This document shows positions 13,696 to 39,078 of a stretch of DNA of 41,347 nucleotides, piece by piece (the first letter of the stretch is position 1; every line of letters begins with the position of its first letter). A model generated the notes under the pieces. The model did not search any database. It saw only the letters and a list, made by a program, of their open reading frames with translations, and was not told the origin of the DNA. The stretch spans positions 1 to 41,347 of IMG/VR virus record IMGVR_UViG_3300025889_000082; one strand, given 5' to 3'. The translations under genes were made by a program, and so were the position numbers. Source of the stretch: a virus (lineage: Duplodnaviria; Heunggongvirae; Uroviricota; Caudoviricetes).

Positions 13696-16600
13696 ATGGA
13701 TCCAATTTGCTCTACTGAACCTTGTCCAGTCATACTGAATTCTACCTGCGTATTCTATGAAGGTGCTAATTTGTTGTACACTGGTATCAATACTAATGAC
13801 AGCATCCAAACTGCTCTACAAAAAATAGATGCTAAGTTTCAGGAAGCTGCAATTGGATATTTATTTAATAATGGTGTCTATCAGTCTGGACCAGGATTAC
13901 CTGTAGGACTTGGTGGCACTATGGATCATGACACTATTATTACAGCTGCAGGATTTGATTTAACATATACAGGAGATGTATATGCAGCTAAACATATTAC
14001 AATTGGTGGTACCTCTTCTGATTTTGTTAAGGGAGATGGTAGCTTAGATAGTACAGCATACCAACCAGCAGGTGCTTATATCACAGCACTTACAGGAGAT
14101 GGAACTGCTTCAGGACCTGGTTCTGCATTGTTTACATTAGCAACAGTTAACCCTGCTCCTGCTACCTATGGTTCTGCTACACAAGTTCCTAGATTTACAG
14201 TGGATGGAAAAGGACGTGTTACAAGTGTTACTCCTGTAACAATTGCTGTTCCTTCTGCATCTTTATCTTTTATAGGAGATGTAACAGGTATTGGAACAAC
14301 AGGTTCTCCTGTGACGTTGACATTGGCTACAGTGAACAATGATGTATATGGAAGTAATACTTTCTTAAAGTTTGCTGTGAATGCTAAAGGATTGGTTACA
14401 TCAGCCACTCCTGTTACACATCTTGATATTGAATCTGTGCTTGGATACATACCTGTTCCTAGCACTAGAACATTAACAATCAATGGTGTTGCCTATTCAT
14501 TATCTGCAAATAGAACATGGTCAGTAGGTACCTTGATTTCTGTGGCATTAACAATGCCTCCAGCATTCACTGTACTCACATCTGCAACAGGAACAAATGG
14601 TACAATCAATGTCATAGCTAATGGTTCAGCCTCTCAATATATAAGAGGTGATGGTACTCTTGGTAGCTATTTTGGTACAGCAGGTACATCAGGCTCCAGT
14701 GGTACATCAGGTATATCTGGAGACAAATATAGAACAACATCCACTACACCTTTTACATTAGGTAATAGTGGTACGTTGATTGTAGCAACACAGCTAGGAT
14801 ATAGTGTAGCTCAATCCATCATAGTAGTGTATGATCTTAACAACTTCCAAGAGTGTGAGGTGGTTGCTTATGACTTTAACACTGGTTTATTAGAATTTGC
14901 ATTTCCTACAAGAACTGTAGGAAGTGGTACATATAGTGATTGGACAGTAAACTTAGATGGTGCTAGTGGTGGTAATGGAACTTCTGGAACCTCTGGTTCT
15001 AGTGGTACTACAGGATCTAGTGGCTCTAGTGGAACTGCTGGTACATCTGGCTCTGCTGGTACATCAGGTAGCAGTGGTAGTAGTGGTGTAAGTGGAACCT
15101 TTGGTACATCAGGAACTGATGGTAGCTCTGGCACTTCTGGTTCTTCTGGAACAACTGGTACATCTGGTTCTAGTGGATCTTCAGGTACAAATGGTTCTTC
15201 TGGAACCTCTGGAACATCTGCAAGCTCTGGTAGTTCAGGCACCACTGGTACATCTGGTACTAGTGCAAGCTCTGGTACTTCTGGATCTTCTGGATCTTCT
15301 GGTACAAGTGGAACTAATGGTACGTCTGGTACAGCTGGAACATCAGGGTCATCTGGAACAAGTGGAACAAATGGTAGCTCTGGAACCAGTGGTACATCAG
15401 CTACATCTGGCTCTTCTGGCTCTAGTGGTACATCTGGCTCTAGTGGTACGTCTGGATCAAGTGGTACAAGTGGATCAGCAGGAACAAGTGCTACCTCTGG
15501 AACTTCTGGATCTAGTGGTACGTCTGCTACAAGTGGAAGTTCTGGTAGCTCAGGTACAAGTGGTACGTCTGGTTCATCAGGAACAAGTGCAACAGCAGGT
15601 TCTAGTGGAACCTCTGCAACTAGTGGATCTTCTGGCACTTCTGCTTCTTCAGGCACAAGTGGGTCTTCTGGAACTAGTGGAACAAGTGGAAGTAGTGGTA
15701 CATCAGCAACAAGTGGTACTTCAGGATCATCTGGATCATCTGGAACAAATGGTTCTAGTGGAACAAGTGCTTCCTCAGGTACATCTGGTAGCTCTGCTAC
15801 ATCAGGTACATCTGCTACAAGTGGTTCGTCAGGATCTAGTGGAACCTCTGGTACATCTGGAAGTTCTGGAACGTCAGCTTCAAGTGGTTCTAGTGGAACA
15901 AGTGGAACGTCAGGTTCAAGTGGTACATCAGGTACTAATGGAAGTTCTGGTACAAGTGCTACATCAGGCTCATCAGGTACAAGTGCAACCAGTGGCTCTT
16001 CAGGTACTAGTGGTACAAAGGGTACGTCTGGAACTAGTGGGACAAGTGGAAGCAGTGGATCAAGTGGAACTTCTGCAACTTCAGGATCAAGTGGAACCAG
16101 TGGTACTAATGGATCAAGTGGCACAGCAGGTACATCTGGTACGTCTGCAAGTAGTGGTACTTCAGGTAGTTCTGGCACATCTGGTACAGCAGGAAGCTCT
16201 GGTGTAAGTGGTGTGGCTGGTGGTCTTGTATACTACATGAACTTGTCTACTAATACCAATAGTGCATTTGGTACACCTACATACAAGGAGTGGAGTCCTA
16301 TTGCATCAGGTGCTGCACAACAGACAACTAATATTACATTAGGTGCTTCTGCTAGTGGTACTATTGCAACATTTGCTACAGATAGTGGTGTTCCAGGAGC
16401 AACTGTATTAGAAGCAGGTAACTGGGCTTGGACATTGCACTTCTTATCTAGTGCTGATTCAACATGGGATATAGACGTACATTTATATAAATATACAACA
16501 GGTGGTGTTTCTACAATGTTAGGAAACACAAACAATGTTGTTACAACAATTAGTGGAACTGTAGTAACACAAATCTACATTGACACATTCATTGCATCAC

Positions 16601-19344
16601 AGTCATTGAATTCAACAGATAGACTGTATTGCCAAGTGAACGTAATAAATAATGATAGCGTAAGCAGAACATTAACTCTCTATACAGAAGGAACAAGTTA
16701 TTATTCTTACGCACAAACCACATTCAATCCTCCTAGTGGTACCTCTGGTACATCTGGAGCTAATGGTTCTTCAGGCACCTCTGGAACGTCAGGGTCTTCA
16801 GGTACATCAGCTACCAGTGGTACGTCTGGTTCAAGTGGATCAAGTGGTACAAGTGGAACTAAGGGTACCTCTGGTACATCAGGCACAAGTGGAAGTTCTG
16901 GCACTAGTGGAACGAGTGGTTCTTCTGGTACCAGTGGCTCTAGTGGTACTAGTGGGTCAAGTGGAACAAGTGCTACAAGTGGATCAAGTGGTACATCAGC
17001 AACCTCTGGTTCATCTGGTTCTTCTGGAACATCTGGCACATCAGGATCTTCAGGAACTTCTGCTTCTAGTGGAAGCTCTGGTACGTCTGGCACATCTGGA
17101 TCTAGTGGCACAAGTGCTACTAGTGGATCTAGTGGAACTAGTGGAAGCTCTGGAACAAGTGGGTCTAGTGGCACATCAGCTACATCTGGGTCTTCAGGTA
17201 CAAGTGGAACAAAAGGAACAAGTGGTACAAGTGGTACCAATGGTTCTTCAGGTACAAGTGGTACGTCTGGGTCTTCTGGTACAGCAGGTACAAGTGGTAG
17301 CTCTGGTTCTAGTGGAACATCTGGTTCTAGTGGTACAAGTGCAACATCAGGATCTTCTGGGTCTAGTGGTACTAGTGGCACGAGTGGAAGTAGTGGAACA
17401 TCAGGAACTGATGGAAGCTCAGGTAGTAGTGGTACAAGTGGTTCATCTGGTACATCAGCAACATCAGGCACTTCTGGTTCATCAGGTACTTCAGGTACTA
17501 AGGGGACATCAGGTACATCAGGAGCAAATGGTTCCAGTGGTACTAGTGGTACTAAGGGCACATCTGGAACTAGTGGAACTTCTGGTTCATCAGGAACATC
17601 AGCTACAAGTGGTTCCTCTGGAACATCTGGTACAGATGGTAGTTCTGGGTCTTCTGGAACAAGTGGTACAGATGGTAGTTCTGGTTCAAGTGGTACATCT
17701 GGTACTGATGGTAGCTCAGGTTCATCAGGAACATCTGGAACTTCTGGTTCTTCAGGAACAAGTGGTACTAAAGGAACATCAGGAACTTCTGGAGCTAATG
17801 GTTCTAGTGGTACTTCAGGAACAAAAGGTACATCTGGAACTTCTGGAACTTCAGGCTCTAGTGGAACTGCTGGTACTAGTGGTAGTTCTGGTACAAGTGC
17901 AGCTAATGGAACTTCTGGAACTTCAGGAACTGATGGATCTTCTGGAACTAGTGGTATAAACGCAACTGCAGGAACTAGTGGTGTAAGTGGTTCTAGTGGT
18001 ACTAGTGCTACAGCTGGAACAAGTGGTACCAATGGATCTAGTGGAACTTCTGGTGCCAATGGTGCTGCAGGTAGCAGTGGTACTTCTGGTACGTCAGGAG
18101 CAAATGGTGCTGCTGGGTCTAGTGGTACTAGTGGAACAAAGGGAACATCAGGAACATCTGGAGCTAATGGAGCTGCTGGTTCTTCAGGAACTAGTGGTAC
18201 TAAGGGTACAAGTGGTACAGCAGGAGCCAATGGTGCTAATGGATCTAGTGGAACGTCTGGTGCAGGTACAATCAGTGGTACTACAGGTTATATAGCCAAA
18301 TTTACTAATAGTACAACTGTTGGTAATAGTATTATAAGTGAAAGTGGTACTGTTATATCAGTCGCTGGAAGTTTAACTGCAACAGGTACTGTAACTGGAA
18401 ATGGTGTATCAATTGGTGCAAGTGATGTAAGGTCAAGTAGTAATGTTTTGACATTAGGTGGAACTTCAGAAGTTATTCGTATTGTTGGTTCTACTGGCTT
18501 TGTAGGTGTTGGTACTACTGCACCATCTTATCAATTAGATGTTCAAGTAAATAATGGTTCTTTCACATCAAGAATTAAAAACTTAAACACCACAACTGAT
18601 AACGCAGGTTTAATAGTTAGTGCTGGTGTTAATGCAGGTAATGAAATTATTTTACTTGAGAATGCTGCTGGTACTGATAGATTTACTGTATTTGCAAATG
18701 GGCAGGTGACAATGGTTGGAGCAAACACTACAACTGTTCCTATACTTGGTATAACAGTGTCAGGTTCTGGTGCATTCCAAAGAGGTGTTAGAATGTTAAA
18801 TAGTGGTATGGGTGCTGGGGATAGTTTAATGTATGCAACTGGACAGTCTGATGGTTCTAAAAACATGGGTCAATTCTATTTCTATTATGCTGGTGCAGCA
18901 AGTAATAGTAATAGATTGTCAATGGGATTACATTCTGTTGATGATGTATTTAATATTTTTGGAAGTTCTAACGTAACCATAGGCACAACATCAGATGCAG
19001 GGTATAAACTATATGTTAGTGGCACTATCTACGCAACTGGAGATATCACAGCATCTTCTGATGCCAGATATAAAACAAACATCAGACCAATTGAGAATGC
19101 TTTAGAAAAGATAGTTAGCTCAAGAGGGGTGGTATATGACAGAGTGGATGAAGAGAGCTTTGACAACATTGGATTTATTGCTCAAGAATTGGAGGTGTAT
19201 TTCCCAGAACTAGTTTCTACAGATAACCAAGGATTCAAGGGAGTTAAATACCAAAATGCTGTAGCTGTTCTATTCGAGGGAATCAAAGAACAACAAAAAC
19301 AAATTGAAGAATTAAAAACTTTAATAGATGGCTTTACCAAGTAG
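13696..19344 (+). CDS. Long tail fibre/adhesin with Gly-X-Ser repeat shafts and C-terminal peptidase S74 intramolecular chaperone
   Basis: Cys-rich N-terminus; two GDxxG..TLATVN..YGS..VxxKGxVTS shaft repeats; two (GTS/GSS)n blocks; GFVGVGTTAP...LDV-type repeats; SDARYKTNI...GFIAQE...KYQ...LFEGIKEQQKQIEEL S74 signature. Confidence 0.88.
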   Translation: MDPICSTEPCPVILNSTCVFYEGANLLYTGINTNDSIQTALQKIDAKFQEAAIGYLFNNGVYQSGPGLPVGLGGTMDHDTIITAAGFDLTYTGDVYAAKHITIGGTSSDFVKGDGSLDSTAYQPAGAYITALTGDGTASGPGSALFTLATVNPAPATYGSATQVPRFTVDGKGRVTSVTPVTIAVPSASLSFIGDVTGIGTTGSPVTLTLATVNNDVYGSNTFLKFAVNAKGLVTSATPVTHLDIESVLGYIPVPSTRTLTINGVAYSLSANRTWSVGTLISVALTMPPAFTVLTSATGTNGTINVIANGSASQYIRGDGTLGSYFGTAGTSGSSGTSGISGDKYRTTSTTPFTLGNSGTLIVATQLGYSVAQSIIVVYDLNNFQECEVVAYDFNTGLLEFAFPTRTVGSGTYSDWTVNLDGASGGNGTSGTSGSSGTTGSSGSSGTAGTSGSAGTSGSSGSSGVSGTFGTSGTDGSSGTSGSSGTTGTSGSSGSSGTNGSSGTSGTSASSGSSGTTGTSGTSASSGTSGSSGSSGTSGTNGTSGTAGTSGSSGTSGTNGSSGTSGTSATSGSSGSSGTSGSSGTSGSSGTSGSAGTSATSGTSGSSGTSATSGSSGSSGTSGTSGSSGTSATAGSSGTSATSGSSGTSASSGTSGSSGTSGTSGSSGTSATSGTSGSSGSSGTNGSSGTSASSGTSGSSATSGTSATSGSSGSSGTSGTSGSSGTSASSGSSGTSGTSGSSGTSGTNGSSGTSATSGSSGTSATSGSSGTSGTKGTSGTSGTSGSSGSSGTSATSGSSGTSGTNGSSGTAGTSGTSASSGTSGSSGTSGTAGSSGVSGVAGGLVYYMNLSTNTNSAFGTPTYKEWSPIASGAAQQTTNITLGASASGTIATFATDSGVPGATVLEAGNWAWTLHFLSSADSTWDIDVHLYKYTTGGVSTMLGNTNNVVTTISGTVVTQIYIDTFIASQSLNSTDRLYCQVNVINNDSVSRTLTLYTEGTSYYSYAQTTFNPPSGTSGTSGANGSSGTSGTSGSSGTSATSGTSGSSGSSGTSGTKGTSGTSGTSGSSGTSGTSGSSGTSGSSGTSGSSGTSATSGSSGTSATSGSSGSSGTSGTSGSSGTSASSGSSGTSGTSGSSGTSATSGSSGTSGSSGTSGSSGTSATSGSSGTSGTKGTSGTSGTNGSSGTSGTSGSSGTAGTSGSSGSSGTSGSSGTSATSGSSGSSGTSGTSGSSGTSGTDGSSGSSGTSGSSGTSATSGTSGSSGTSGTKGTSGTSGANGSSGTSGTKGTSGTSGTSGSSGTSATSGSSGTSGTDGSSGSSGTSGTDGSSGSSGTSGTDGSSGSSGTSGTSGSSGTSGTKGTSGTSGANGSSGTSGTKGTSGTSGTSGSSGTAGTSGSSGTSAANGTSGTSGTDGSSGTSGINATAGTSGVSGSSGTSATAGTSGTNGSSGTSGANGAAGSSGTSGTSGANGAAGSSGTSGTKGTSGTSGANGAAGSSGTSGTKGTSGTAGANGANGSSGTSGAGTISGTTGYIAKFTNSTTVGNSIISESGTVISVAGSLTATGTVTGNGVSIGASDVRSSSNVLTLGGTSEVIRIVGSTGFVGVGTTAPSYQLDVQVNNGSFTSRIKNLNTTTDNAGLIVSAGVNAGNEIILLENAAGTDRFTVFANGQVTMVGANTTTVPILGITVSGSGAFQRGVRMLNSGMGAGDSLMYATGQSDGSKNMGQFYFYYAGAASNSNRLSMGLHSVDDVFNIFGSSNVTIGTTSDAGYKLYVSGTIYATGDITASSDARYKTNIRPIENALEKIVSSRGVVYDRVDEESFDNIGFIAQELEVYFPELVSTDNQGFKGVKYQNAVAVLFEGIKEQQKQIEELKTLIDGFTK
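14971..16221 (+). repeat. Coding triplet repeat block 1, (G-T/S-S)n, about 415 aa
   Basis: Gly at nearly every third residue (occasional Ala), X/Y almost only Ser/Thr, with heavily mixed synonymous codons. Confidence 0.95.
16738..18261 (+). repeat. Coding triplet repeat block 2, (G-T/S-S)n with GTK, GTD, GAN and GAA variants, about 505 aa
   Basis: Same periodicity, with higher-order units such as GTSGTDGSSGSS x3 (about 17620-17725) and GTSGANGAAGSS. Confidence 0.95.
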
Positions 19345-19796: not shown

Positions 19797-20156
19797 ATGG
19801 AAATTGTTTATCAATGGGTGATATCCCAAATGCAAGAAGTGCCTCAAGAAGGTTCTTTAACAGATATAGTAATGTTTATTCACTGGAGAAGAAATGCATT
19901 TACAACAGTAGATGGCAAAGAGTATGTAGCAGATACATATGGAGCATATGCATGTCCTGCTCCAAGTGGAACAGACTTCACTCCTTATAGTGAACTTACT
20001 GAGGATCAAGTAATTAGCTGGTTAGATGCTGGCTTAGATGTAGAAGCTATTAATAGGAACTTAGCAGCTCAGTTAGATCAACAAATCAATCCTCCTCTTA
20101 TAGTCCTACCTCTACCTTGGGAAACTACCACCACTACAACTACAACTACAATATAA
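19797..20156 (+). CDS. Conserved phage protein (fibre-accessory type) with C-terminal poly-Thr tail
   Basis: IHWRRNA...FTPYSELTEDQVISWL...LPLPW core; ends ETTTTTTTTI. Confidence 0.65.
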   Translation: MEIVYQWVISQMQEVPQEGSLTDIVMFIHWRRNAFTTVDGKEYVADTYGAYACPAPSGTDFTPYSELTEDQVISWLDAGLDVEAINRNLAAQLDQQINPPLIVLPLPWETTTTTTTTTI

Positions 20157-20206: not shown

Positions 20207-20554
20207 ATGAAAGCTTTAGAGTTAAAGTTTGGTAAGGAGAAAATTCAAGGAAGAGAGACATTCTTTTCTACAGCTGACTTATTAAAAGCAGCTATTAATA
20301 ATGTACCTAGAGAAGGAGGTATGGATGTTAAAGAGATGTCTACAAGACTTCGCTTATTAAAGATTGTAGATGCTCACAAAGAGTTTAATATTGAAGAGAA
20401 AGACTTTACAGATTCTTACTTAGCTATCAGAAAGACTGTAGAGTTTGAAGATGCTGACTTTGTAAAGTTGAAAGATTTATTCAATGCTGTGAAGTGGGGT
20501 GTTGTTTCTGAATTCATTATTGAGTTAGGTGAAACATTAGAAAAAACTAAATAA
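20207..20554 (+). CDS. Hypothetical protein (possible assembly chaperone)
   Basis: 115-aa ORF with its own promoter and an A-rich start; converges on and overlaps the glycosylation operon by 8 bp. Confidence 0.7.
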   Translation: MKALELKFGKEKIQGRETFFSTADLLKAAINNVPREGGMDVKEMSTRLRLLKIVDAHKEFNIEEKDFTDSYLAIRKTVEFEDADFVKLKDLFNAVKWGVVSEFIIELGETLEKTK

Positions 20555-21614
20555 GTTTTTTCACTTCTTCCAATACATCATTCATAGAAATAGCCTTATG
20601 ACATTCAAAATGTCTAGGGCTATTTTCATTTTCAGGACACCAGTTCCAGTCTCCCTTATTAAACTTAAACAATGGATTGTTCCAACATCCATGGCACACA
20701 TTCTTATTAGTGATTCTTATACAACTAAACTCATGGTCTTCTTCTGTGAAGTTAGATATCATCACTGTCTCTTTACCAACAGCCCAGTTTAACCAGCTGA
20801 TGCCACTAGATAGTCCTATATATGCCTTTGCATAATATAGATAGTTCATTACATTGTTTAAGGAAGTGTCTGTAAGTTTGATTGCACCTAAGTCATCAGC
20901 TTCTTGAGACATCTCAATCACTTTATATCCCATTGATTGTAGCTCACTGATAAGCTCTTTCCAATAATACCAATGTTTACATTGTGCTGTAGATCTTGTA
21001 GATATGCAAATATATCTATCTTCTATAGGACGTGTTGGTGTAAAAGCTATCCTAGGTTGTATTTCTCTATGCTTTAGATTTAATATATTAGAAGCTGCTT
21101 GTTGTAATGGTATAGTGGCAGGATGTATAGGTTCTTTATTACTATCCCAGAACCATCCTATTTCAAACATTGCTATGAGGTTATCTACTCTCACCCCTCT
21201 ACCTACAAACTTAAGCTCAGGATATACAGACTCAAACAGTTCATTCTTGAATGTAGATACTATGACATCACATTGGTATACATTCTTAAACTCTAAACAG
21301 TATGGTATCCAAGCAATGCTGTCTCCCAATGAACTAGATTCAAAAGATATAAACACACGCTTACCTTTTATTTCATCTAACAGATTGATTTGCTTAATGG
21401 TGCGTCCTTGATACTTAATGAATATAGCTATGTCTGATAGATATTTTCTGCTAAGCTTAGCCCAACTTCCTGGTCTCATCTTCACTTCATATATAATCTC
21501 ACTCTTTGATGTAGTTGTATCTACAAACACTACATCATACTCTCTGTTCTTGCCCTCATCTCCTAGTAACTCAAAGTGCAAACCATGGACATGTGTTAAA
21601 TTATAAGTTACCAT
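20547..21614 (-). CDS. AAH/TibC (BAHT)-like protein O-glycosyltransferase (autotransporter heptosyltransferase family, GT-B fold)
   Basis: GSWAKLSRKY...KRVFISFESSSLGDSIAWIPY, STAQCKHW, GLSSGISWLNWAVGKETVMISNFT and Cys cluster VCHGCWN...WCP...FEC all parallel recalled AAH/TibC motifs. Confidence 0.8.
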   Translation of the reverse strand: MVTYNLTHVHGLHFELLGDEGKNREYDVVFVDTTTSKSEIIYEVKMRPGSWAKLSRKYLSDIAIFIKYQGRTIKQINLLDEIKGKRVFISFESSSLGDSIAWIPYCLEFKNVYQCDVIVSTFKNELFESVYPELKFVGRGVRVDNLIAMFEIGWFWDSNKEPIHPATIPLQQAASNILNLKHREIQPRIAFTPTRPIEDRYICISTRSTAQCKHWYYWKELISELQSMGYKVIEMSQEADDLGAIKLTDTSLNNVMNYLYYAKAYIGLSSGISWLNWAVGKETVMISNFTEEDHEFSCIRITNKNVCHGCWNNPLFKFNKGDWNWCPENENSPRHFECHKAISMNDVLEEVKKLI

Positions 21615-22623
21615 ATGCTTCTATGTATAATTGTTTTGTTATTTCAGATGTGTATTCTTTACCTATTATACGAACGTTGTCGTAATATTTCTTTAATATC
21701 TTACACACTTCCAACCAGCTTCTACTTTTACGTGCATTTAGCATTTCTTTTCTTCTGTGGTCATAGGTTTTAATTGTTTCTTCTATACCTGTAATAACAG
21801 CAGCTGTACTAATTTCAGGTATCACCCACATACCATCCATATGTCTACTTCCTTTGTAAGTTCCCACAATGGGAATAGCACATGCTGTGGCTTCCATAAG
21901 TGTTAGGTTAGGATGGCCTGCTTCTAGCATAGATGGATGTAAGAATATATCATGTGTTTGATATAGCTCTCTCATCTCTTCATCTGTAGGATTTGTTAAC
22001 TTTAAAGTTAACTTTGGATAGTCTAATAAGTCTTTATGAATTTCAAAGAACTTTTGGTTATCAGGATGACCAGCTATAGTGATAGGAAGATTCAACTGCT
22101 TAGCTGCTTCTATACCATATCTAAATCCTTTTCTATCAAACCCACTGTCTCCACCTAGTCCATTGTTAGCTATCATCAATAGTGCATATTCAAATGTAGT
22201 TGTGAAAGCATAGTTTGGTGTAAAGAAATCTGTATCTGCACCATGTGGTAGGTAGAACAACTTATCCACTGTATCAAAGTAGTCTATTAAATACTCAGCA
22301 TGTGTAAAGGATATAATACTTCCTTTCATAGCTTCTACATTCTGATTGTACACCCAGCTATCTTTACCATACCATTCTGTGTGGTGGTCATGTAGTGAAT
22401 AGATATAAGGGATGCCTCTATCTTTACAGTCTAGAGCTAAGTTAGCAAGATGTACATGTACTATCTGGTCAGGCTTTTTCTCCACCTGATTGATATATTG
22501 TATATCAACAGTTTCTCCTAGTTGTTCTAGTCCTTGTTTATATGCCCATATAAGTCTTTCTACAGCACCCCAACCATTTGGTGGGATGGTAATTAATCCT
22601 GTGGCTACTTGTACTATCCCCAT
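21601..22623 (-). CDS. Glycosyltransferase, GT4-like (GT-B)
   Basis: IPPNGWGAVE, RKGFRYGIEA, DIFLHPSMLEAGHPNLTLMEA (ExnE motif). Confidence 0.85.
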   Translation of the reverse strand: MGIVQVATGLITIPPNGWGAVERLIWAYKQGLEQLGETVDIQYINQVEKKPDQIVHVHLANLALDCKDRGIPYIYSLHDHHTEWYGKDSWVYNQNVEAMKGSIISFTHAEYLIDYFDTVDKLFYLPHGADTDFFTPNYAFTTTFEYALLMIANNGLGGDSGFDRKGFRYGIEAAKQLNLPITIAGHPDNQKFFEIHKDLLDYPKLTLKLTNPTDEEMRELYQTHDIFLHPSMLEAGHPNLTLMEATACAIPIVGTYKGSRHMDGMWVIPEISTAAVITGIEETIKTYDHRRKEMLNARKSRSWLEVCKILKKYYDNVRIIGKEYTSEITKQLYIEAYGNL

Positions 22624-23306
22624 TTTCTTTCAAATTTAATTTTGTCTTCCTCCATTTTCTTAATGCTTTCAGGAGTGAGCTTGGTTATATTTACGCTCCT
22701 TAAATGACAAACAATAGAATCTTTTACCAAGGCATGTTTAATACCATGTTTCATCAACATTCTTGCATAGTCATTGTCTTGGTAATACATATCAAACTGC
22801 TCATCAAAAGGACTAATCTTATCTAGTGCTTCCTTTTTAATAACTAAACACCAACCCATCACTGCTTCATGTACAGTGTAGTCTTCAAAGTACTTAGATG
22901 GACTATCTATAAAATGCCAATCAAAAAACCTTATATATAATGCAGGATCTTTTGGAGAGAAAGAATGTATGTCTGGTCTTTCTTTACTAATAGCCATTAT
23001 TTCAGATAGCCAGTTCTTCTCATAACCTACATCATTGTTAGATATGATAACCCATTCTGATGTTACATAGTTCATAGCAATGTTAATAAACTTGTTATAG
23101 TTAAATGGTTCATTAGGCTTAATGTAATTGGCTACTATTTGTGTTTCAAGATAGTCTTTTGTATAGTCATCTCCTGACTCCACTAAGTGTATCTTGAACT
23201 TATATCCTATTTCACTATCACGTAGGGTGTATATAGTTCTTAAAGTCATTCTAAGATTCTTTTCAGTCTTAGTATTTGTAAGTATGATTACGTCTATTGT
23301 TTGCAT
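22614..23306 (-). CDS. Glycosyltransferase, GT2-like (GT-A)
   Basis: IDVIILT...FNYNKFIN...IISNNDV...FDEQFDMYYQDNDY...HL. Confidence 0.82.
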   Translation of the reverse strand: MQTIDVIILTNTKTEKNLRMTLRTIYTLRDSEIGYKFKIHLVESGDDYTKDYLETQIVANYIKPNEPFNYNKFINIAMNYVTSEWVIISNNDVGYEKNWLSEIMAISKERPDIHSFSPKDPALYIRFFDWHFIDSPSKYFEDYTVHEAVMGWCLVIKKEALDKISPFDEQFDMYYQDNDYARMLMKHGIKHALVKDSIVCHLRSVNITKLTPESIKKMEEDKIKFERKWG

Positions 23307-23308
23307 GT

Positions 23309-23860
23309 TTATTTTTTTAATAGTCCCCAGAAGTATAAATCACAGCTATTCTCATCTACATAGAAATGATGTGCAGCAAAATACTTATCTAAATCTATAG
23401 CTGCTCTTACATCTAATTCTGTAACATTCATATAATACCCAGCCCAATCTTCTTCTTGTATTGTGAATGGACTATCTTGTGGATCAAATATACTAGTTCC
23501 ATGTGTAGGTCTTCCTGTCGTAGCACATGTAAATAAAAACAATCCTCCTGGACGTAATAGATTATCTATAACATTCTGGATAGTTTCCTTCCAATACATA
23601 TCATGTTCAAACACTTCTGTGCTTATAACAGTGTCATACTTTTTACCATCTATAGGTCTGTATTCATGTCCTTTACTTACAACATTTACATTTCTACCCT
23701 TACCAATATCTATACCAATATAGGAATAGTCTTCAAATAGATAGTGATTGTTACCATTTAAGTCTAGTGAACCAATGTCACAGACATTTACATTATTGAA
23801 ATACTCAGGAAAGATTTGTTTTACAAAGTTGCAAAATGCTTGCTCTGCTGGATGTGCCAT
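23309..23860 (-). CDS. Class I SAM-dependent methyltransferase (possible sugar O-methyltransferase)
   Basis: VCDIGSLDLNG motif I, YIGIDIG, YDTVISTEVFEHD, LLRPGGLFLFT. Confidence 0.85.
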   Translation of the reverse strand: MAHPAEQAFCNFVKQIFPEYFNNVNVCDIGSLDLNGNNHYLFEDYSYIGIDIGKGRNVNVVSKGHEYRPIDGKKYDTVISTEVFEHDMYWKETIQNVIDNLLRPGGLFLFTCATTGRPTHGTSIFDPQDSPFTIQEEDWAGYYMNVTELDVRAAIDLDKYFAAHHFYVDENSCDLYFWGLLKK

Positions 23861-28432: not shown

Positions 28433-28479
28433 GTTGTTTATTTTCAACAAAGTTACTATATTTGTGGGGAATATTCAAC
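28433..28479. promoter_or_regulatory. Overlapping divergent promoter pair
   Basis: Plus strand GTTG(28433-36)-N20-TATATTTG(28457-64); minus strand GTTG(28479-76)-N20-TAACTTTG(28455-48). Confidence 0.65.
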
Positions 28480-28488
28480 AAATTTTTT

Positions 28489-28857
28489 ATGCAAATAGAA
28501 GTAAGTATTGGAGAAATAGTGGACAAATGGACCATTCTTTCTATCAAAGCCCTAAATATTACAGACAAAGATAAGTTAGTCAATGTATTTAAAGAACGTA
28601 ACTATCTAAATACCATCATAGATCCTGAGGTTTTACATGATTCTTTAACAGATAGTTTGCTCACAGTAAACAAAAGACTCTGGGATGTAGAGGATAGACT
28701 CAGAGATTGTGAAAGAAGCAAGGTGTTTGATGACCACTTTGTACAACTAGCCAGATCTGTTTATATGTTGAATGACAAGCGAGCACATATTAAAAAAGAA
28801 ATTAATATTAAGTGGGGATCTGACTTTATAGAGGAGAAATCCTACCAGCCATACTAG
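28489..28857 (+). CDS. DUF6165-like helical protein
   Basis: Likely start MQIEVSIGEIVDK at 28489. The pattern VSIGEIVDK.TIL.IK...VN..LW.VED.LR...FVQLARSVY..ND.RA.IKKEIN...EEKSY is recalled as DUF6165. Confidence 0.7.
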   Translation: MQIEVSIGEIVDKWTILSIKALNITDKDKLVNVFKERNYLNTIIDPEVLHDSLTDSLLTVNKRLWDVEDRLRDCERSKVFDDHFVQLARSVYMLNDKRAHIKKEINIKWGSDFIEEKSYQPY

Positions 28858-33519: not shown

Positions 33520-33524
33520 TCAAC

Positions 33525-33827: not shown

Positions 33828-33828
33828 T

Positions 33829-33966
33829 ATGGCACAGAAGAAAAAGAAACCTGTTGCTCAGAGATCTAGAAGATCTGGTATAAAGAAAGCTGAGCTAGTA
33901 AAATCAAACCAAGAAACAATTGCAAACGTATGGACTTATTTAAACACAAACCAGCTGAGAAAGTAG
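33829..33966 (+). CDS. Possible small basic protein (45 aa)
   Basis: ATG 1 nt after the previous stop; MAQKKKKPVAQRSRRSGIKK...; overlaps the next gene by 37 nt. Confidence 0.35.
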   Translation: MAQKKKKPVAQRSRRSGIKKAELVKSNQETIANVWTYLNTNQLRK

Positions 33967-36555: not shown

Positions 36556-37665
36556 ATGGCAATACCAAGTAGACAGATAGGCTGGGGCACAACAGACAAC
36601 TTGTTGTGGGAAATCTCTAAACAGATAGAGGGCATTGGTTGTATCATTGCGTGTGGTACTTCTGGGTATGGTACGTCAGGTACATCAGGATACTCAGGAG
36701 ATAAGTATTTAACTACATCTAGTAGTTCATTTACACTAGGTACTTCTACAACATTAACTGTTGGAACTGGTTTAGCTTACACTGTAGCCCAAGACATCAT
36801 CATAGCACATGATATTGATAATCATCAAACTTGTATGGTTGAAAGCTATGATCCTGTTACAGGTATAATGGTTATAGGTCCTCCTTTTACAGTTACTGGT
36901 AGTGGAACCTATACATCTTGGTTTATTAATCTTGATGGAGCAGCTGGGGGTAATGGTACAAGTGGCACTTCTGGAACTTCTGGGTCATCAGGGTCATCTG
37001 GTTCTAGTGGAACTACAGGAACTAGTGGATCTTCAGGTAGCTCAGGAACTAGTGGAATAAAAGGAACAAGTGGCACTAGTGGTACAAATGGCTCTTCTGG
37101 TACTGCTGGAACAAGTGGGTCTTCAGGAACTTCTCCTGTGTTTCCTTTTCCAACAGTATTTGGATTATTCTCTCAAACAGGTGATAGTACTCCAGTTACA
37201 AATACAGTAACAGAAACAACAATCATTAATGGTGGTGTTGGTACACTGACTGTAGGAGCTAATCAATTTTCTGTTGGTGATAGTTTTAGAGCAGACTTTG
37301 GTGGTGTTGTAAGCACTGGTAATAATCAAACTATTAGACTTAGAGTGAAAGCAGGATCTGTAATATTGTTAGATAGTGGAGCACAGAATATAAATAATGT
37401 TACTAACAATGTTTGGTCTTTATCAATCAACTTTACTATTAGACAGTTAGGTGCTGCAGGTGTAGCGTCAATTGTTTCTTTAGGAACATTTAATTATGCT
37501 AAGACAGTAAATGGTACTGTGGAAGGATTTTCTTTCAATACTGTGAATAACACTACATTTAACACAACAGTTAGTAATACATTAGATGTTACAGTTGAAT
37601 GGGGTGCTGCTACTACAGCAAATACTATCTATAGTGACATATTTGTATTAAATAAAATATATTAA
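36556..37665 (+). CDS. Short fibre/decoration protein with Gly-Thr-Ser repeat
   Basis: MAIPSRQIGW N-terminal module; about 95-aa domain paralogous to the long fibre; about 60 aa of GTS/GSS; beta-rich C-terminal domain. Confidence 0.7.
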   Translation: MAIPSRQIGWGTTDNLLWEISKQIEGIGCIIACGTSGYGTSGTSGYSGDKYLTTSSSSFTLGTSTTLTVGTGLAYTVAQDIIIAHDIDNHQTCMVESYDPVTGIMVIGPPFTVTGSGTYTSWFINLDGAAGGNGTSGTSGTSGSSGSSGSSGTTGTSGSSGSSGTSGIKGTSGTSGTNGSSGTAGTSGSSGTSPVFPFPTVFGLFSQTGDSTPVTNTVTETTIINGGVGTLTVGANQFSVGDSFRADFGGVVSTGNNQTIRLRVKAGSVILLDSGAQNINNVTNNVWSLSINFTIRQLGAAGVASIVSLGTFNYAKTVNGTVEGFSFNTVNNTTFNTTVSNTLDVTVEWGAATTANTIYSDIFVLNKIY

Positions 37666-37667
37666 TA

Positions 37668-37805
37668 ATGGCAATACCTTCTAGACAAATAGGATGGAGT
37701 ACAACTGATAATTTGCTTTGGCAAATATCCAAGCAATTGGAGTATTTGACACAAGTGACAGCTAATGGTACTACTACAACCACTACTACAACAGCAGCTC
37801 CTTAA
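37668..37805 (+). CDS. 45-aa mini-protein: shared N-terminal module plus poly-Thr tail, missing from the ORF track
   Basis: MAIPSRQIGWSTTDNLLWQISKQLEYLTQVTANGTTTTTTTTAAP; the first 25 aa nearly duplicate the upstream gene. Confidence 0.85.
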   Translation: MAIPSRQIGWSTTDNLLWQISKQLEYLTQVTANGTTTTTTTTAAP

Positions 37806-37832
37806 TAGGAACAAAACCAACAAACTACATAT

Positions 37833-38849
37833 ATGAAGGATTTAAAATTTATCTGTGCACAACCAGATGATGTCTACTATACATGGCAGGTTCATCTTTG
37901 GTTGGAAAGCTTGAAGAAGCTTGGACATTCAGACAAGGCAATTGTTTTAGTGTACACACCCAGTTTCAGAGAATACAATAAGAAGTGGGAAAAGATAATG
38001 GAACTGTATCCAGAAGCAGACTTTGCTTTCTATAAGGATACAGGAGATGTAAGTCAATACTTAGGAGTATATATTCCTATCCTACGTCCATATTGCTTAA
38101 TGAGATATTTCCAGGACCATCCTGAGATGGTTACCAAAGCAGTGTTTTATTGTGATTGTGATGTAATCTTCACAGAGAAATTTGACCTTGAGAAATTCAA
38201 GGATGATGATGTTAACTACTTATCTGATACAAACAGTTATATTAGTGCTTCATATTTTGATAGTAAATTAAAAGATGTTCTTCCTGATAAACTGGAAGAA
38301 TACAAAACTAGAGATGTTCTAGCTGAGGTGACAAGTTTAGTGGGCATCAGTAGAGAAATAGCTGAAGCTAACAATGATCACTCAGGAGGAGCTCAGTATT
38401 TCCTAAAGAATGTAGACTCTGAGTTTTGGAAGAAGGTGATGAATGACTGTATACTAATACGTGTCTACCTTCAGAATATAAACAAAGCTTTCTTTAAAGA
38501 TGAAAACAAAGGGTTTCAAAGTTGGTGTGCTGACATGTGGGCTGTCCTTTGGAACATATGGCTTAGAGAGAAAGAAACTAAAAACATTCCTGAATTAGAA
38601 TTCTGTTGGTCTTCAGATCCTATCGAGAAACTAGAGAGAACAACACTATTGCATAATGCAGGTATTACAGGACAGAACACCATGGGCTATCCTGCTTTTT
38701 ATAAAGGAGCATATCACACTGGTAAAGATCCTTTTCAAGATACACACTTAGATAAGGTGTTAAATAATGAGGAGTCTAAGAAACGTGCAACTCATTACTA
38801 TCTAAGTCAACTTATTGAATTAAAAAACAAATATAACCTTAACTATTAA
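37833..38849 (+). CDS. GT-A glycosyltransferase resembling plant peptidyl-Ser galactosyltransferase (SGT1/GT96) and Hyp O-arabinosyltransferase (HPAT/GT95)
   Basis: DDVYYTWQ, ILRPYCLMRYF, DCDVIF, GGAQYFL and WCADMWA occur in the same order as recalled HPAT/SGT1 motifs (Y.xWQ, N[RK]P, DxD, W..EMY). Confidence 0.65.
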   Translation: MKDLKFICAQPDDVYYTWQVHLWLESLKKLGHSDKAIVLVYTPSFREYNKKWEKIMELYPEADFAFYKDTGDVSQYLGVYIPILRPYCLMRYFQDHPEMVTKAVFYCDCDVIFTEKFDLEKFKDDDVNYLSDTNSYISASYFDSKLKDVLPDKLEEYKTRDVLAEVTSLVGISREIAEANNDHSGGAQYFLKNVDSEFWKKVMNDCILIRVYLQNINKAFFKDENKGFQSWCADMWAVLWNIWLREKETKNIPELEFCWSSDPIEKLERTTLLHNAGITGQNTMGYPAFYKGAYHTGKDPFQDTHLDKVLNNEESKKRATHYYLSQLIELKNKYNLNY

Positions 38850-38868
38850 CCTAATTAAAAAAACAATT

Positions 38869-39078
38869 ATGGGAAGCAATCAAAATTTAAAAGCTTATGT
38901 TCGCTATGATGGTAGTGGCAGAGTAGTTGCAGGTAGTCTTATCTTTAGAGTTAAGAAGCCTACAGTGGGAAGATGGCATGAAATTGCTATTACAGAATGT
39001 TGTGAGTATGTACCTACAACTACAACAACAACAACAGCAGCTCCTACAACAACAACAACTACTACAGCGGCTCCTTAA
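38869..39078 (+). CDS. Small Cys-containing protein with (T7AAP)x2 tail
   Basis: LKAYVRYDGSGRVVAGSL...WHEI...CC followed by PTTTTTTTAAPTTTTTTTAAP. Confidence 0.8.
   Translation: MGSNQNLKAYVRYDGSGRVVAGSLIFRVKKPTVGRWHEIAITECCEYVPTTTTTTTAAPTTTTTTTAAP

What the first reader, a model, noticed from the sequence alone, without database searches (positions are those of the whole stretch)
13696..39078. Candidate phage-encoded virion protein O-glycosylation system: enzymes and Ser/Thr acceptors in one region
Seen: about ten GT or GT-like domains and a methyltransferase, and at least five proteins with Ser/Thr-only tracts (about 900 aa of G-X-S, a second GTS fibre, three poly-Thr tails). Known: the two most diagnostic enzymes resemble families that glycosylate proteins rather than LPS (AAH/TibC on Ser of autotransporter repeats; SGT1/HPAT on plant wall proteins). 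Fibres fold in the cytoplasm, out of reach of the host periplasmic O-glycosylation system. Inference: the phage builds its own glycan coat on fibres, for stability, receptor mimicry or shielding from proteases and grazers.
Basis: partly seen in the sequence, partly recalled or inferred. Interest (0 to 1): 0.92.

Follow-up and report, generated by a model that had tools for sequence, protein, structure and literature searches.

The report
Phage genes for sugar-coating its virion
An uncultured 105-kb phage carries two kinds of sugar-adding enzyme whose genes, across many unrelated phages, come and go together with two kinds of serine/threonine-only tracts in fibre and small virion proteins, so it very probably sugar-coats its own particle, which experiments have shown only for mycobacteriophages.

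Summary
The stretch has a seven-gene minus-strand cassette: a TibC/AAH-type enzyme, GT4, GT2, a methyltransferase, a 328-aa protein, an 899-aa multidomain protein and GT9. It also has a separate GT-A enzyme, two proline-free Gly-Ser/Thr collagen-like fibres and three poly-Thr-tailed proteins.

1. The TibC-like enzyme passes NCBIfam's curated cut-off. It goes with G-[ST]-[ST] repeats.
- Among 23 near-complete relatives, 18 of 18 with the enzyme have many collagen matches. The 5 without it have 0-2, and they fall in three tree groups.
- Among 48 viral records picked only by the repeat, 24 have the enzyme, including 7 of 7 complete ones. In seven genomes of 66-548 kb that I measured it lies 0.3-13 kb from the repeat.
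- Only 1 of 29 control records has it.

2. The 338-aa GT-A enzyme models best onto plant SGT1/HPAT. It lies next to poly-Thr tails in 67 of 75 relatives and about 10 of 12 unrelated phages.

Relatives that lost pair 1 keep pair 2.

The sugars, donor and acceptor sites are unknown, and nothing has been tested at the bench. This scan found both pairings before on other DNA. No paper in the library searched describes either pairing.

The parts
13696..19344 (+). 1882-aa trimeric tail fibre. It has two long proline-free Gly-Ser/Thr collagen-like shafts (about nt 14971-16200 and 16815-18261), a globular insert and a C-terminal S74 self-cleaving chaperone. Proposed acceptor of the TibC-like cassette.
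   Evidence: Pfam Collagen E 5.5e-102 and Peptidase_S74 E 1.7e-12. 783 aa in G-X-Y runs, 57% Ser+Thr, 0% Pro. G-[ST]-[ST] x7 pattern matches.
19797..20156 (+). 119-aa DUF7936 protein ending in nine Thr. Proposed poly-Thr acceptor.
   Evidence: Pfam DUF7936 E 9e-24; phrog_7802; T9 tail with mixed ACT/ACC/ACA codons.
20547..21614 (-). 355-aa TibC/AAH-type (BAHT) protein O-glycosyltransferase. Proposed priming enzyme for Ser/Thr of the G-[ST]-[ST] repeats.
   Evidence: PDB 4rap TibC E 2.2e-44 over residues 50-347. NCBIfam TIGR04414 at 232.4 bits, cut-off 200. Asp98, Thr209, Lys213, Trp274 and four Cys are invariant in 33 phage homologues.
21601..22623 (-). 340-aa GT1/GT4 glycosyltransferase. Proposed first elongating enzyme.
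   Evidence: Pfam Glycos_transf_1 E 2.9e-9. Of the window's genes compared, only this one (and a weak GT9 match) accompanies the TibC-like gene in the distant loci L049-L051 and L054, at 42-46% identity.
22614..23306 (-). 230-aa GT2 glycosyltransferase. A variable member of the cassette.
   Evidence: Pfam Glycos_transf_2 E 2.2e-6; phrog_22332 E 3.7e-13. Present in only some relatives.
23309..23860 (-). 183-aa SAM-dependent methyltransferase. Proposed sugar O-methylase; variable member.
   Evidence: Pfam Methyltransf_23 E 7e-7; phrog_32762 E 2.6e-45.
23862..24848 (-). 328-aa protein with an N-terminal nucleotide-diphospho-sugar-transferase fold and a C-terminal beta-sandwich. Either a GT-A transferase or a sugar nucleotidyltransferase.
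   Evidence: No Pfam, PDB-sequence or NCBIfam hit. AF2 pLDDT 88.8. Foldseek hits to KdsB, IspD, RmlA and to GT-A enzymes, E 1e-6 to 4e-5. Paralogue of residues 341-605 of the 899-aa protein.
24845..27544 (-). 899-aa three-domain enzyme: GT4, a copy of the 328-aa fold, and a GT25-like C-terminus. The true start is probably Met17 at 27496.
   Evidence: Pfam Glycos_transf_1 E 1.5e-9 at residues 181-292. Middle domain E 2e-16 to the 328-aa protein. C-terminus GT25-like, atlas 0.96, with 89 of 100 nearest clusters. The Atlas record starts at residue 17.
27493..28431 (-). 312-aa GT9 (heptosyltransferase-family) enzyme with its own C-terminal Cys cluster. First gene of the minus-strand cassette.
   Evidence: Pfam Glyco_transf_9 E 2.7e-15; WaaF 1psw E 7.8e-6. 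NCBIfam heptosyltransferase I/II and TIGR04414 matches, all below cut-off.
28462..28857 (+). 131-aa DUF6165 protein, divergent from the cassette and conserved with it. Role unknown.
   Evidence: Pfam DUF6165 E 3e-9. Found beside the TibC-like gene in most relatives and in distant L052 and L038-L047.
36556..37665 (+). 369-aa second fibre with a proline-free Gly-Ser/Thr collagen-like segment.
   Evidence: Pfam Collagen E 6e-7; tail-fibre PHROGs; 66 aa of repeats, 55% Ser+Thr, 0% Pro; pattern matches at 36955-37055.
37668..37805 (+). 45-aa mini-protein: the N-terminal 25 residues of the 369-aa fibre followed by T8-AAP. Proposed poly-Thr acceptor.
   Evidence: A homologous mini-ORF with a poly-Thr tail lies directly upstream of the GT-A gene in 56 of 75 relatives.
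37833..38849 (+). 338-aa GT-A glycosyltransferase (phrog_4417) with DxD at 108-110 and an invariant His274. Proposed peptidyl-Thr O-glycosyltransferase for poly-Thr tails.
   Evidence: phrog_4417 E 1.2e-54. 774 family representatives. AF2 pLDDT 97.6. Foldseek: retaining GT-A enzymes in PDB; SGT1 and HPAT top in Swiss-Prot models. Fusions to GT2, GlcNAc-T with O-FucT, and methyltransferases.
38869..39078 (+). 69-aa protein ending in (T7-AAP) twice. Proposed poly-Thr acceptor.
   Evidence: A poly-Thr-tailed ORF lies directly downstream of the GT-A gene in 49 of 75 relatives.

Best explanation
The region encodes the phage's own machinery for O-glycosylating virion proteins in the host cytoplasm. 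It consists of two separable enzyme-acceptor pairs.

Pair 1. The TibC/AAH-type enzyme (20547-21614) puts a first sugar on Ser/Thr of the proline-free G-[ST]-[ST] collagen-like shafts of the fibres. The rest of the cassette (GT4, the 899-aa multidomain enzyme, GT9, and variably GT2, the methyltransferase and the 328-aa protein) extends and methylates the glycan.

Pair 2. The 338-aa GT-A enzyme (37833-38849) glycosylates poly-Thr tails on small virion-associated proteins, and probably on the poly-Thr tracts of two proteins elsewhere in the genome, one of them matching virion-structural PHROGs.

Shown: the family and fold assignments, the conserved catalytic residues, and the gene co-occurrence and neighbourhood.
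Inferred: that the tracts are the acceptors, the order of the steps, and that the glycan stabilises or shields the fibre.
Unknown: the sugars and the nucleotide donor. The phage clade always lacks the Arg that reads adenine in TibC, and the genome has no sugar-activation genes among the three families searched.
For: Family and fold:
- TibC-like enzyme: PDB 4rap E 2e-44; TIGR04414 at 232 bits, above the cut-off of 200; catalytic and iron-finger residues invariant in 33 phage homologues.
- GT-A enzyme: the model is best matched by SGT1 and HPAT, which are protein O-glycosyltransferases; DxD and His are invariant; family members are fused to other GTs and methyltransferases.

Pair 1, within the lineage:
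- 18 of 18 relatives with the TibC-like gene have 6-38 Collagen matches. The 5 without it have 0, 2, 0, 2, 0.
- Three complete genomes without the gene lack the whole cassette and every G-[ST]-[ST] repeat, including those at loci far apart in this genome. The only collagen left is a GPQ type.
- The genomes without the gene fall in three groups on the GT-A tree.

Pair 1, across viruses:
- 24 of 48 records picked only by the repeat pattern hold a TibC-like gene, 7 of 7 among records at least 90% complete and 10 of 11 among those at least 60% complete.
- Among poly-Thr-picked controls, 1 of 29 holds it, and 0 of 12 among those at least 60% complete. Fisher p is 1e-5.
- In seven genomes of 66-548 kb the gene lies 0.3-13 kb from the repeat.
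- In reverse, 4 of 5 further distant TibC-bearing records have collagen-like repeats, and L049's contig also carries the pattern. Three of the four, Microcystis phage Mel-JY01 among them, have the G-[ST]-[ST] type; the fourth has only 21% Ser+Thr.

Pair 2:
- A poly-Thr tail is adjacent in 67 of 75 relatives.
- About 10 of 12 contexts outside the lineage also have one. These include the C-termini of capsid and tail-tube proteins of Enterococcus, Lactobacillus, Clostridium and Staphylococcus phages.
- In 6 of 67 randomly sampled poly-Thr loci the enzyme gene lies directly beside the poly-Thr ORF.

Dissociation and precedent:
- Genomes without pair 1 keep pair 2.
- Glycans on the C-termini of mycobacteriophage capsid and tail-tube proteins are a published precedent (Freeman 2023, as summarised in PMC12619734).
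Against: - There is no biochemical or proteomic evidence for this phage or any relative.
- Many compared records are fragments, and related genomes are not independent samples. The tree used is of one gene.
- In the lineage the cassette sits beside the largest fibre gene, so part of the co-loss could be one deletion.
- GT9, GT4, GT2 and GT25 families usually build lipopolysaccharide or polysaccharide.
- The cassette is on the opposite strand to the structural genes, so its timing may differ from that of the fibres.
- TibC's known acceptors are beta-helix repeats, not collagen-like repeats. The phage enzyme also lacks the beta-hairpin thumb needed for TibC's dodecamer.
- The GT-A enzyme is absent from most poly-Thr-coding viral contigs (1 of 29). 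Two homologues (G060, G051) have no Thr-rich neighbour.
- The complex prediction gave no verdict.
Confidence: 0.72

Rival explanations
1. The minus-strand cassette remodels the host envelope during infection (lipopolysaccharide core, O-antigen or capsule), for example to block superinfection or to stop progeny sticking to debris. The Ser/Thr tracts are unmodified.
For: GT9, GT4, GT2 and GT25 are classic envelope-glycan families. The 312-aa GT9 scores best against LPS heptosyltransferases I and II, below cut-off. The cassette is a separate transcription unit on the other strand. The literature usually assigns phage GTs to DNA or O-antigen modification (PMC7029224, PMC10202952).
Against: The lead enzyme meets the curated cut-off of a family known only to glycosylate proteins. 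The cassette co-varies with the composition of the fibre shaft, not with any host marker, in hosts as different as Bacteroidota-type phages and a Microcystis phage. No membrane-spanning or lipid-carrier enzymes were seen in the cassette. Neighbourhood to the repeat gene is kept in genomes up to 548 kb.
Confidence: 0.1
2. Cassette and Gly-Ser/Thr fibres co-vary because both belong to one exchangeable host-range module. The cassette acts on the receptor that those fibres bind, not on the fibres.
For: Fibre genes and the cassette are adjacent and lie in the variable part of the genome. Phage host-range regions are swapped as blocks.
Against: The associated feature is the repeat shaft, which does not carry receptor specificity. 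In this genome the repeats occur in three fibres at loci up to 70 kb apart, and genomes lacking the cassette have no such repeat anywhere. The association holds across unrelated genome types.
Confidence: 0.07
3. The Ser/Thr tracts are plain flexible linkers or spacers, and their nearness to glycosyltransferases has no functional meaning (linkage or compositional chance).
For: Poly-Thr and Gly-Ser tracts are common linkers. Most poly-Thr-coding viral contigs lack the GT-A enzyme.
Against: Fisher p is 1e-5 against controls. Co-loss occurred in three tree groups. The GT-A gene is directly adjacent to poly-Thr tails in phages of at least six host genera. Codons are scrambled under a kept protein pattern.
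Confidence: 0.08
4. The glycosyltransferases modify phage DNA (glycosylated bases) to evade restriction.
For: This is a known role of phage GTs (cited in PMC12619734).
Against: No hydroxymethyl-base or deazaguanine synthesis genes were noted in the window. BAHT and SGT1/HPAT-like folds are protein-directed. A seven-gene cassette with a methyltransferase fits a glycan chain rather than a base adduct.
Confidence: 0.03

Closest known systems
TibC/TibA and AAH/AIDA-I: bacterial autotransporter heptosyltransferases (BAHT; TIGR04414; PDB 4RAP, 4RB4; PMC4358343)
   Same: Same family by the curated cut-off. N-terminal barrel plus GT-B core. The catalytic Asp, Thr/Lys for the beta-phosphate, Trp for the sugar and the four-Cys iron finger are all kept. 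Ser stands at the position that lets AAH accept both heptose epimers. A cytoplasmic enzyme that hyperglycosylates Ser in a repetitive protein encoded nearby.
   Different: Encoded by a phage. The presumed acceptor is a collagen-like G-[ST]-[ST] repeat of a fibre, not a beta-helix adhesin. The Arg that reads adenine N1 is never present in 33 phage homologues. The beta-hairpin thumb that builds the dodecamer ring is deleted. The enzyme is followed by several further GTs, so probably a chain is built rather than single heptoses. In many phages the domain is fused into proteins of 700-1500 aa.
Mycobacteriophage virion glycosylation (Che8, Corndog, Myrna; Freeman et al. 2023, Cell Host Microbe 31:1216; seen here only through citing papers)
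   Same: Phage-encoded glycosyltransferases plus a methyltransferase, with glycans on C-terminal tails of virion proteins. The GT-A homologues in Gram-positive phages sit next to capsid and tail-tube proteins with Thr tails, the same two proteins.
   Different: No Mycobacterium phage among 77 tblastn hits of the GT-A enzyme, so probably a different enzyme family. The hosts are Bacteroidota-type and Firmicutes. Collagen-like fibre shafts are a second acceptor class. Nothing is shown by experiment here.
Plant and algal peptidyl-Ser alpha-galactosyltransferase SGT1 (GT96) and hydroxyproline O-arabinosyltransferases HPAT/RDN (GT95)
   Same: Best structural matches of the 338-aa enzyme (E 1e-9 to 5e-7, TM about 0.6). 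GT-A fold with DxD. They prime O-glycans on runs of hydroxy-amino acids in repetitive, extended peptides.
   Different: Only 11-14% sequence identity and no sequence-level hit. The plant enzymes are Golgi membrane proteins acting on Ser or Hyp; the phage enzyme is soluble and its presumed acceptor is poly-Thr. Membership in GT95/GT96 is not shown.
Giant-virus self-glycosylation (PBCV-1 capsid, Mimivirus fibrils; review PMC4691112 listed, not read)
   Same: Virus-encoded, host-independent glycosylation of the virus's own surface proteins. The PBCV-1 A64R glycosyltransferase is among the fold matches of the 328-aa protein.
   Different: Those are eukaryotic viruses with other enzyme families. 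The resemblance rests on my own knowledge and was not tested here beyond one fold match.
Collagen-like phage and prophage tail fibres (E. coli O157 prophage collagens, PMC3368898) and glycosylated-Thr collagen of Riftia (from memory)
   Same: Trimeric G-X-Y shaft ended by a folding domain. In Riftia cuticle collagen, glycosylated Thr in the Y position replaces hydroxyproline as the stabiliser.
   Different: The phage repeats have no Pro at all. That glycosylation stabilises them is an inference.

Membership tests
BAHT (TibC/AAH, TIGR04414) | Whole-protein score above the curated equivalog cut-off | tested here: met
   232.4 bits against a cut-off of 200, profile positions 27-374 of 374. PDB TibC E 2.2e-44.
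BAHT (TibC/AAH, TIGR04414) | Catalytic base Asp-110 in the LGD loop | tested here: met
   Asp98 aligns with Asp-110. Invariant in 33 phage homologues.
BAHT (TibC/AAH, TIGR04414) | Four-Cys iron finger (Cys-339, 342, 358, 370) | tested here: met
   Cys307, 310, 326 and 338 align and are invariant. Iron binding itself was not tested.
BAHT (TibC/AAH, TIGR04414) | Four donor-binding residues (Thr-226, Lys-230, Trp-305, Arg-286) | tested here: inconclusive
   Thr, Lys and Trp are kept. The Arg-286 position is Val here and V/T/A/C/I in all 33 phage homologues. In TibC this Arg contacts adenine N1, so the donor nucleotide may differ.
BAHT (TibC/AAH, TIGR04414) | Beta-hairpin thumb (Phe-265, Val-266) for dodecamer assembly | tested here: not met
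   In the phmmer alignment the TibC residues around 258-270 are an insertion relative to the phage protein (the thumb is described). The oligomeric state is therefore open.
BAHT (TibC/AAH, TIGR04414) | Heptosyl transfer from ADP-heptose to Ser of a protein | not testable with these tools
   No GmhA-type, HldE-type or NTP_transferase genes in the genome. The host is unknown.
GT95/GT96 (HPAT, SGT1) | Sequence-level membership | tested here: not met
   No Pfam, NCBIfam or PDB-sequence hit. 11-14% identity in the structural alignments.
GT95/GT96 (HPAT, SGT1) | GT-A fold with a DxD motif, closest to these families | tested here: met
   Top nine Swiss-Prot model hits are SGT1 and HPAT/RDN, TM 0.53-0.62. 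D108 and D110 are invariant in 86 sequences.
Collagen triple-helix repeat (PF01391) | Uninterrupted G-X-Y periodicity over long runs | tested here: met
   Pfam E 5.5e-102 with 8 stretches. 783 aa in runs of at least six triplets.
Collagen triple-helix repeat (PF01391) | Imino acids (Pro/Hyp) stabilising the helix | tested here: not met
   0% Pro in the repeats. No 2OG-Fe(II) oxygenase in the genome. Formation of a triple helix is not shown.
Phage virion glycosylation system (Che8 type) | Phage-encoded GTs plus a methyltransferase, with Ser/Thr-rich tails on virion proteins | tested here: met
   A 1560-aa protein matching the virion-structural family phrog_37948 (E 9e-94) carries a T7 tract.
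Phage virion glycosylation system (Che8 type) | Glycans detected on virion proteins | not testable with these tools
   This is a metagenomic virus record; no proteomic data are available.

The most novel reading that the evidence does not exclude
Phages of many lineages (66-548 kb genomes, hosts from Bacteroidota to cyanobacteria) build imino-acid-free collagen whose triple helix is stabilised not by hydroxyproline but by dense O-glycosylation of Ser/Thr. The sugars would be installed by a phage-specific branch of the BAHT family that has dropped the adenine-reading Arg and the dodecamer thumb, and so may use a different donor and assembly. In parallel, a second, SGT1/HPAT-like enzyme family writes mucin-like glycans on poly-Thr tags of capsid, tail-tube and whisker proteins. 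Sugar-coated virions would then be common in nature rather than a mycobacteriophage oddity.
Probability: 0.35. Interest if true: 0.88.

Novelty: new variant of a known kind. Interest (0 to 1): 0.78.

Why it matters
Phage glycosyltransferases are routinely annotated as DNA- or O-antigen-modifying 'morons'. If two widespread enzyme families instead write glycans on the virion itself, three things follow.
- Many fibre, capsid and tail-tube proteins in databases are glycoproteins. Their mass, stability, antigenicity and receptor behaviour are then mispredicted from sequence.
- Phage-therapy and display work with Enterococcus, Lactobacillus, Staphylococcus and Clostridium phages would have to reckon with a glycan shield, as already shown for antibody recognition of mycobacteriophages.
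- A proline-free, glycosylation-dependent collagen would be a new solution to triple-helix stability and a possible biomaterial.

Soluble enzymes that glycosylate simple G-S/T or poly-Thr tags in the bacterial cytoplasm would also be useful glyco-engineering tools. The hypothesis is directly testable in culturable carriers named in the next steps.

Tried and rejected
- Megablast of 19.8 kb against GenBank phages found no match.
- PDB sequence searches for the 338-aa, 328-aa and 899-aa proteins found nothing meaningful.
- The search for related loci with the 86-row alignment failed because it had no conserved stretch. A 17-row alignment worked but returned only close relatives.
- Complex prediction of the GT-A enzyme with the 69-aa poly-Thr protein gave no verdict (0.11 against a mark of 0.32). 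It is not evidence either way.
- Expectation that the GT-A enzyme accompanies poly-Thr tracts in general: not met. It is present in 1 of 29 poly-Thr-picked records and 3 of 48 repeat-picked records. Poly-Thr tracts have other or no partners elsewhere.
- Idea that the GT25-like domain acts on hydroxylysine of G-T-K triplets as in animal collagen: no lysyl- or prolyl-hydroxylase-type oxygenase in the genome, so set aside.
- Phage-encoded ADP-heptose or other NDP-sugar synthesis: none found for SIS_2, CTP_transf_like or NTP_transferase.
- The ±10 kb flanks of distant TibC-like loci showed no Ser/Thr-rich acceptor. This first looked like a counter-example, until whole-record searches found the repeats further away.
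- Freeman et al. 2023 could not be read. It is cited only through other papers.
- Long minus-strand ORFs inside the fibre gene (14868-16178, 16707-18230) are shadow frames of the repeat, not genes.


Full report
**What the DNA is.** The window is the first 41,347 bases of a single 105,347-bp IMG/VR virus record. The record has 35.6% G+C and CheckV rates it 92% complete. Earlier notes of this scan call it a crAss-like phage of Bacteroidota; I did not test that label. Phage nature is clear from several features: a fibre with an S74 chaperone, a GH19 endolysin at 30264-30863, matches to virion-structural PHROGs, and about 100 related viral contigs of 90-119 kb. The nearest GenBank phage by the GT-A protein is Chryseobacterium phage MA9V-3, at 37% identity.

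**Checking the observation.**
- A minus-strand cassette runs from 28431 down to 20547. In order it holds GT9 (312 aa), an 899-aa protein, a 328-aa protein, a methyltransferase, GT2, GT1/GT4 and a 355-aa GT9-like protein.
- The 899-aa protein has a GT4 domain by Pfam. Its middle domain is paralogous to the 328-aa protein (25% identity, E 2e-16). Its C-terminus resembles GT25 by language-model features only.
- The model of the 328-aa protein (pLDDT 88.8) has the nucleotide-diphospho-sugar-transferase fold. Foldseek ranks sugar nucleotidyltransferases (KdsB, IspD, RmlA) beside GT-A transferases such as COLGALT1 and PBCV-1 A64R, so I can name only the fold class.
- A separate plus-strand gene, 37833-38849, belongs to phrog_4417, annotated 'unknown function'.
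- The count is six firm GT domains, one probable and two possible, plus the methyltransferase.
- The acceptor-like tracts are all real. The 1882-aa fibre matches Collagen at E 5.5e-102 and has 783 aa in G-X-Y runs with 57% Ser+Thr and no Pro. The 369-aa fibre is of the same type. Three proteins end in T7-T9.
- Outside the window, the genome has a third such fibre (88631-93256) and two more poly-Thr proteins. One of these is a 1560-aa protein that matches virion-structural PHROGs.
- The repeats are kept at the protein level. A degenerate G-[ST]-[ST] x7 DNA pattern hits 12 times against 0 in shuffles, codons are mixed, and Tandem Repeats Finder sees only 62-79% matching units.

**The TibC-like enzyme.**
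- The 355-aa protein aligns with TibC over residues 50-347 at E 2e-44. It scores 232 bits against the NCBIfam equivalog 'autotransporter strand-loop-strand O-heptosyltransferase', whose cut-off is 200.
- I mapped the residues that the TibC structure paper defines (PMC4358343). The catalytic Asp-110, Thr-226, Lys-230, Trp-305 and the four iron-finger Cys are present here and invariant in 33 phage homologues.
- Pro-300 is Ser, as in AAH.
- Arg-286, which contacts adenine N1 and was proposed to explain ADP specificity, is Val here and is never Arg in the phage set.
- The beta-hairpin thumb that links TibC dimers into the dodecamer appears as a TibC-specific insertion in the alignment.
- So this is a true family member with a phage-specific active-site and assembly variant. 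The donor is open.
- The genome has no GmhA-, HldE- or NTP-transferase-type genes.

**Does the TibC-like enzyme go with the Gly-Ser/Thr fibres?**

*Within the lineage.*
- I took 23 near-complete relatives. The enzyme is in 18, and all 18 have 6-38 Pfam Collagen matches. The five without it have 0, 2, 0, 2, 0.
- I fetched three complete genomes that lack it. They lack the entire cassette and DUF6165, and they have no G-[ST]-[ST] repeat anywhere. The fibre homologues keep only 7-15% of their length. The single collagen-like gene left, in G018, is a GPQ type with 5% Ser+Thr.
- On a tree of the GT-A protein the five fall in three groups, one of them nearly identical to a genome that has the enzyme. 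At least two or three separate joint changes are therefore needed. This is a single-gene tree.

*Across viruses.*
- A scan of IMG/VR for the repeat pattern alone gave 120 stretches. Of 48 whole records that could be searched, 24 hold a TibC-like gene at 34-54% identity.
- That includes 7 of 7 records at least 90% complete and 10 of 11 at least 60% complete.
- A control set picked by a poly-Thr pattern gave 1 of 29, and that one belongs to this lineage. It gave 0 of 12 at 60% completeness or more. Fisher p is 1e-5.
- In seven genomes of 66, 69, 166, 170, 249, 299 and 548 kb, the gene lies 3, 5.6, 0.3, 13, 4.4, 5 and 5 kb from the nearest repeat.

*In reverse.*
- I had first counted the distant TibC-bearing contigs as lacking acceptors in their flanks. 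Whole-record searches showed that four of five carry collagen-like repeats elsewhere on the record, and three of the four are of the G-[ST]-[ST] type.
- The fourth (G103) has collagen-like repeats with only 21% Ser+Thr. L049's contig also carries the pattern.
- Microcystis phage Mel-JY01 is one of them. Its repeat frame lies 4-7 kb from the enzyme domain.

*Caveats.* Many records are fragments, relatives are not independent, and adjacency means some joint losses could be single deletions. The loss of repeats at loci far apart in the genome argues against pure linkage.

**The GT-A enzyme and poly-Thr tails.**
- The 338-aa protein has no Pfam, NCBIfam or PDB-sequence match. It belongs to a large family of 774 representatives at 50% identity.
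- Long members are fused to GT2, a DXD sugar-binding domain, GlcNAc-transferase plus O-fucosyltransferase, methyltransferases or a radical-SAM domain.
- Asp108, Asp110, His274 and five other residues are invariant in 86 sequences.
- The AF2 model (pLDDT 97.6) matches retaining GT-A enzymes in the PDB: WbbM, glycogenin, UGGT and alpha-1,3-GalT.
- Among Swiss-Prot models its nine best hits are Arabidopsis and Chlamydomonas SGT1 and the HPAT/RDN hydroxyproline arabinosyltransferases (E 1e-9 to 5e-7, TM 0.53-0.62). Family membership is not shown.

*Neighbours.*
- Here the gene lies between the 45-aa protein and the 69-aa protein. The 45-aa protein shares 22 of its first 25 residues with the 369-aa fibre and ends T8-AAP.
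- In 80 relatives, 56 of 75 with both flanks have a poly-Thr-tailed ORF directly upstream and 49 directly downstream. 67 have at least one.
- Outside the lineage, tblastn finds the family in 77 GenBank phage records, mostly of Gram-positive hosts. In the ones I opened, the gene directly follows a virion protein with a Thr tail:
  - the phiFL1A major tail protein;
  - Semele gp074 and gp075;
  - iLp84_8, with Thr tails also on the capsid and tail proteins of that phage;
  - the phiCTP1 tail tube;
  - Staphylococcus DH5;
  - the Enterococcus 4995_1 capsid protein.
- Variant forms occur in ENFP1 (TTVAP repeats), G048 (TSTP repeats), MA9V-3 (internal tracts) and Planchet (poly-Thr in another frame after the capsid gene).
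- Two homologues (G060, G051) have none.
- Of 67 randomly sampled viral loci with a T7 ORF, six have the enzyme gene directly beside that ORF. At whole-record level only 1 of 29 does. The enzyme predicts the tail, but the tail does not predict this enzyme.

**Putting it together.** The two pairs are separable. Genomes that lack the cassette and the repeats keep the GT-A gene and poly-Thr proteins. Most repeat-bearing genomes with a TibC-like gene lack the GT-A family.

I read the region as two self-glycosylation modules acting in the cytoplasm on proteins destined for the virion. The only experimental precedent I could trace is mycobacteriophage glycosylation of capsid and tail-tube C-termini (Freeman 2023, summarised in PMC12619734 and PMC13313380). 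No paper in the library searched links BAHT enzymes to phage collagen-like fibres, or this GT-A family to poly-Thr tails.

This scan has reached both pairings before on other genomes. What this window adds is both modules in one genome, and their dissociation among its relatives.

**Rivals.** Host-envelope remodelling is the main alternative, because GT9, GT4, GT2 and GT25 usually build lipopolysaccharide or polysaccharide and the cassette is a separate transcription unit. It does not explain why the enzyme tracks the composition of a fibre shaft across hosts as different as Bacteroidota-type phages and a cyanophage. A shared host-range module, meaningless linkers and DNA modification are less likely still, for the reasons given in the Rival explanations section. 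I put the main reading at about 0.72. The purpose (triple-helix stabilisation in the absence of proline, protease or antibody shielding) remains inference.

Noticed in passing
L398:2700-2921 (Enterococcus phage Planchet, OX422066.1): The major capsid gene ends at 2772. A different frame, overlapping its end, then encodes about 40 residues of poly-Thr/Ser up to a stop, just before the GT-A homologue. This may be a capsid extension reached by programmed frameshifting.
   Followed up: partly
L255:29-3050 (Microcystis phage Mel-JY01, PP395634.1): A 1016-aa open frame on the plus strand carries 606 aa of Gly-Ser/Thr collagen-like repeats, where GenBank annotates minus-strand hypothetical CDSs. These are probably shadow ORFs. 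The TibC-like domain is the C-terminus of a 1226-aa protein annotated 'methyltransferase FkbM', and a 'cytidylyltransferase like protein' lies 3 kb away, possibly a phage-encoded sugar activation step.
   Followed up: partly
window 14868-16178(-), 16707-18230(-), 15092-16207(+), 16736-17959(+): Long ORFs of 370-507 aa inside the fibre gene in other frames and on the other strand (Pro-Leu-Val-Pro-Glu-rich or Leu-Val-Gln-rich). They are shadow frames of the Gly-Ser/Thr repeat, not genes.
   Followed up: yes
window 27493-27544: The 899-aa ORF overlaps the upstream GT9 gene by 52 nt. The ESM Atlas record starts at its residue 17 (Met, nt 27496), which reduces the overlap to 4 nt and is the likelier start.
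   Followed up: partly
window 36556-36630 and 37668-37742: The 369-aa fibre and the 45-aa poly-Thr mini-protein share 22 of their first 25 residues. The mini-protein looks like the fibre's N-terminal (virion-attachment?) module carrying only a Thr tag. Relatives keep this family upstream of the GT-A gene.
   Followed up: partly
window 28462-28857: A DUF6165 protein (weak DUF4254 match) is divergently placed next to the cassette. It travels with the TibC-like gene even in distant loci (L052, L038-L047), and is absent with the cassette in G017-G019. Function unknown.
   Followed up: partly
window 30995-36462: After the GH19 endolysin comes a run of genes for signal-peptide or lipoprotein-like proteins. 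One is a 562-aa protein with a C-terminal cohesin-like domain. Another is a 407-aa protein with a poly-Ala/Ser and Ser-Glu-Ser-Lys low-complexity segment. Part of this block is missing in relatives G017 and G018.
   Followed up: no
G004-G006, G010, G011, G020, G021 (relatives); G047, G048, G070: In many relatives and unrelated phages the TibC-like domain is the C-terminal part of open frames of 1130-1530 aa. The stand-alone 355-aa form seen here is one of several architectures.
   Followed up: no
window 2-13552: Two giant ORFs (2658 aa, open at the 5' end, and 1853 aa) upstream of the fibre have no PHROG match. They are only 28-49% identical in relatives.
   Followed up: no
G018 (relative) 6485-7426(-): A genome lacking the TibC-like gene carries a conventional Gly-Pro-Gln type collagen-like protein (5% Ser+Thr) next to its poly-Thr proteins. 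Collagen-like fibres as such do not need the cassette; only the Ser/Thr type goes with it.
   Followed up: partly
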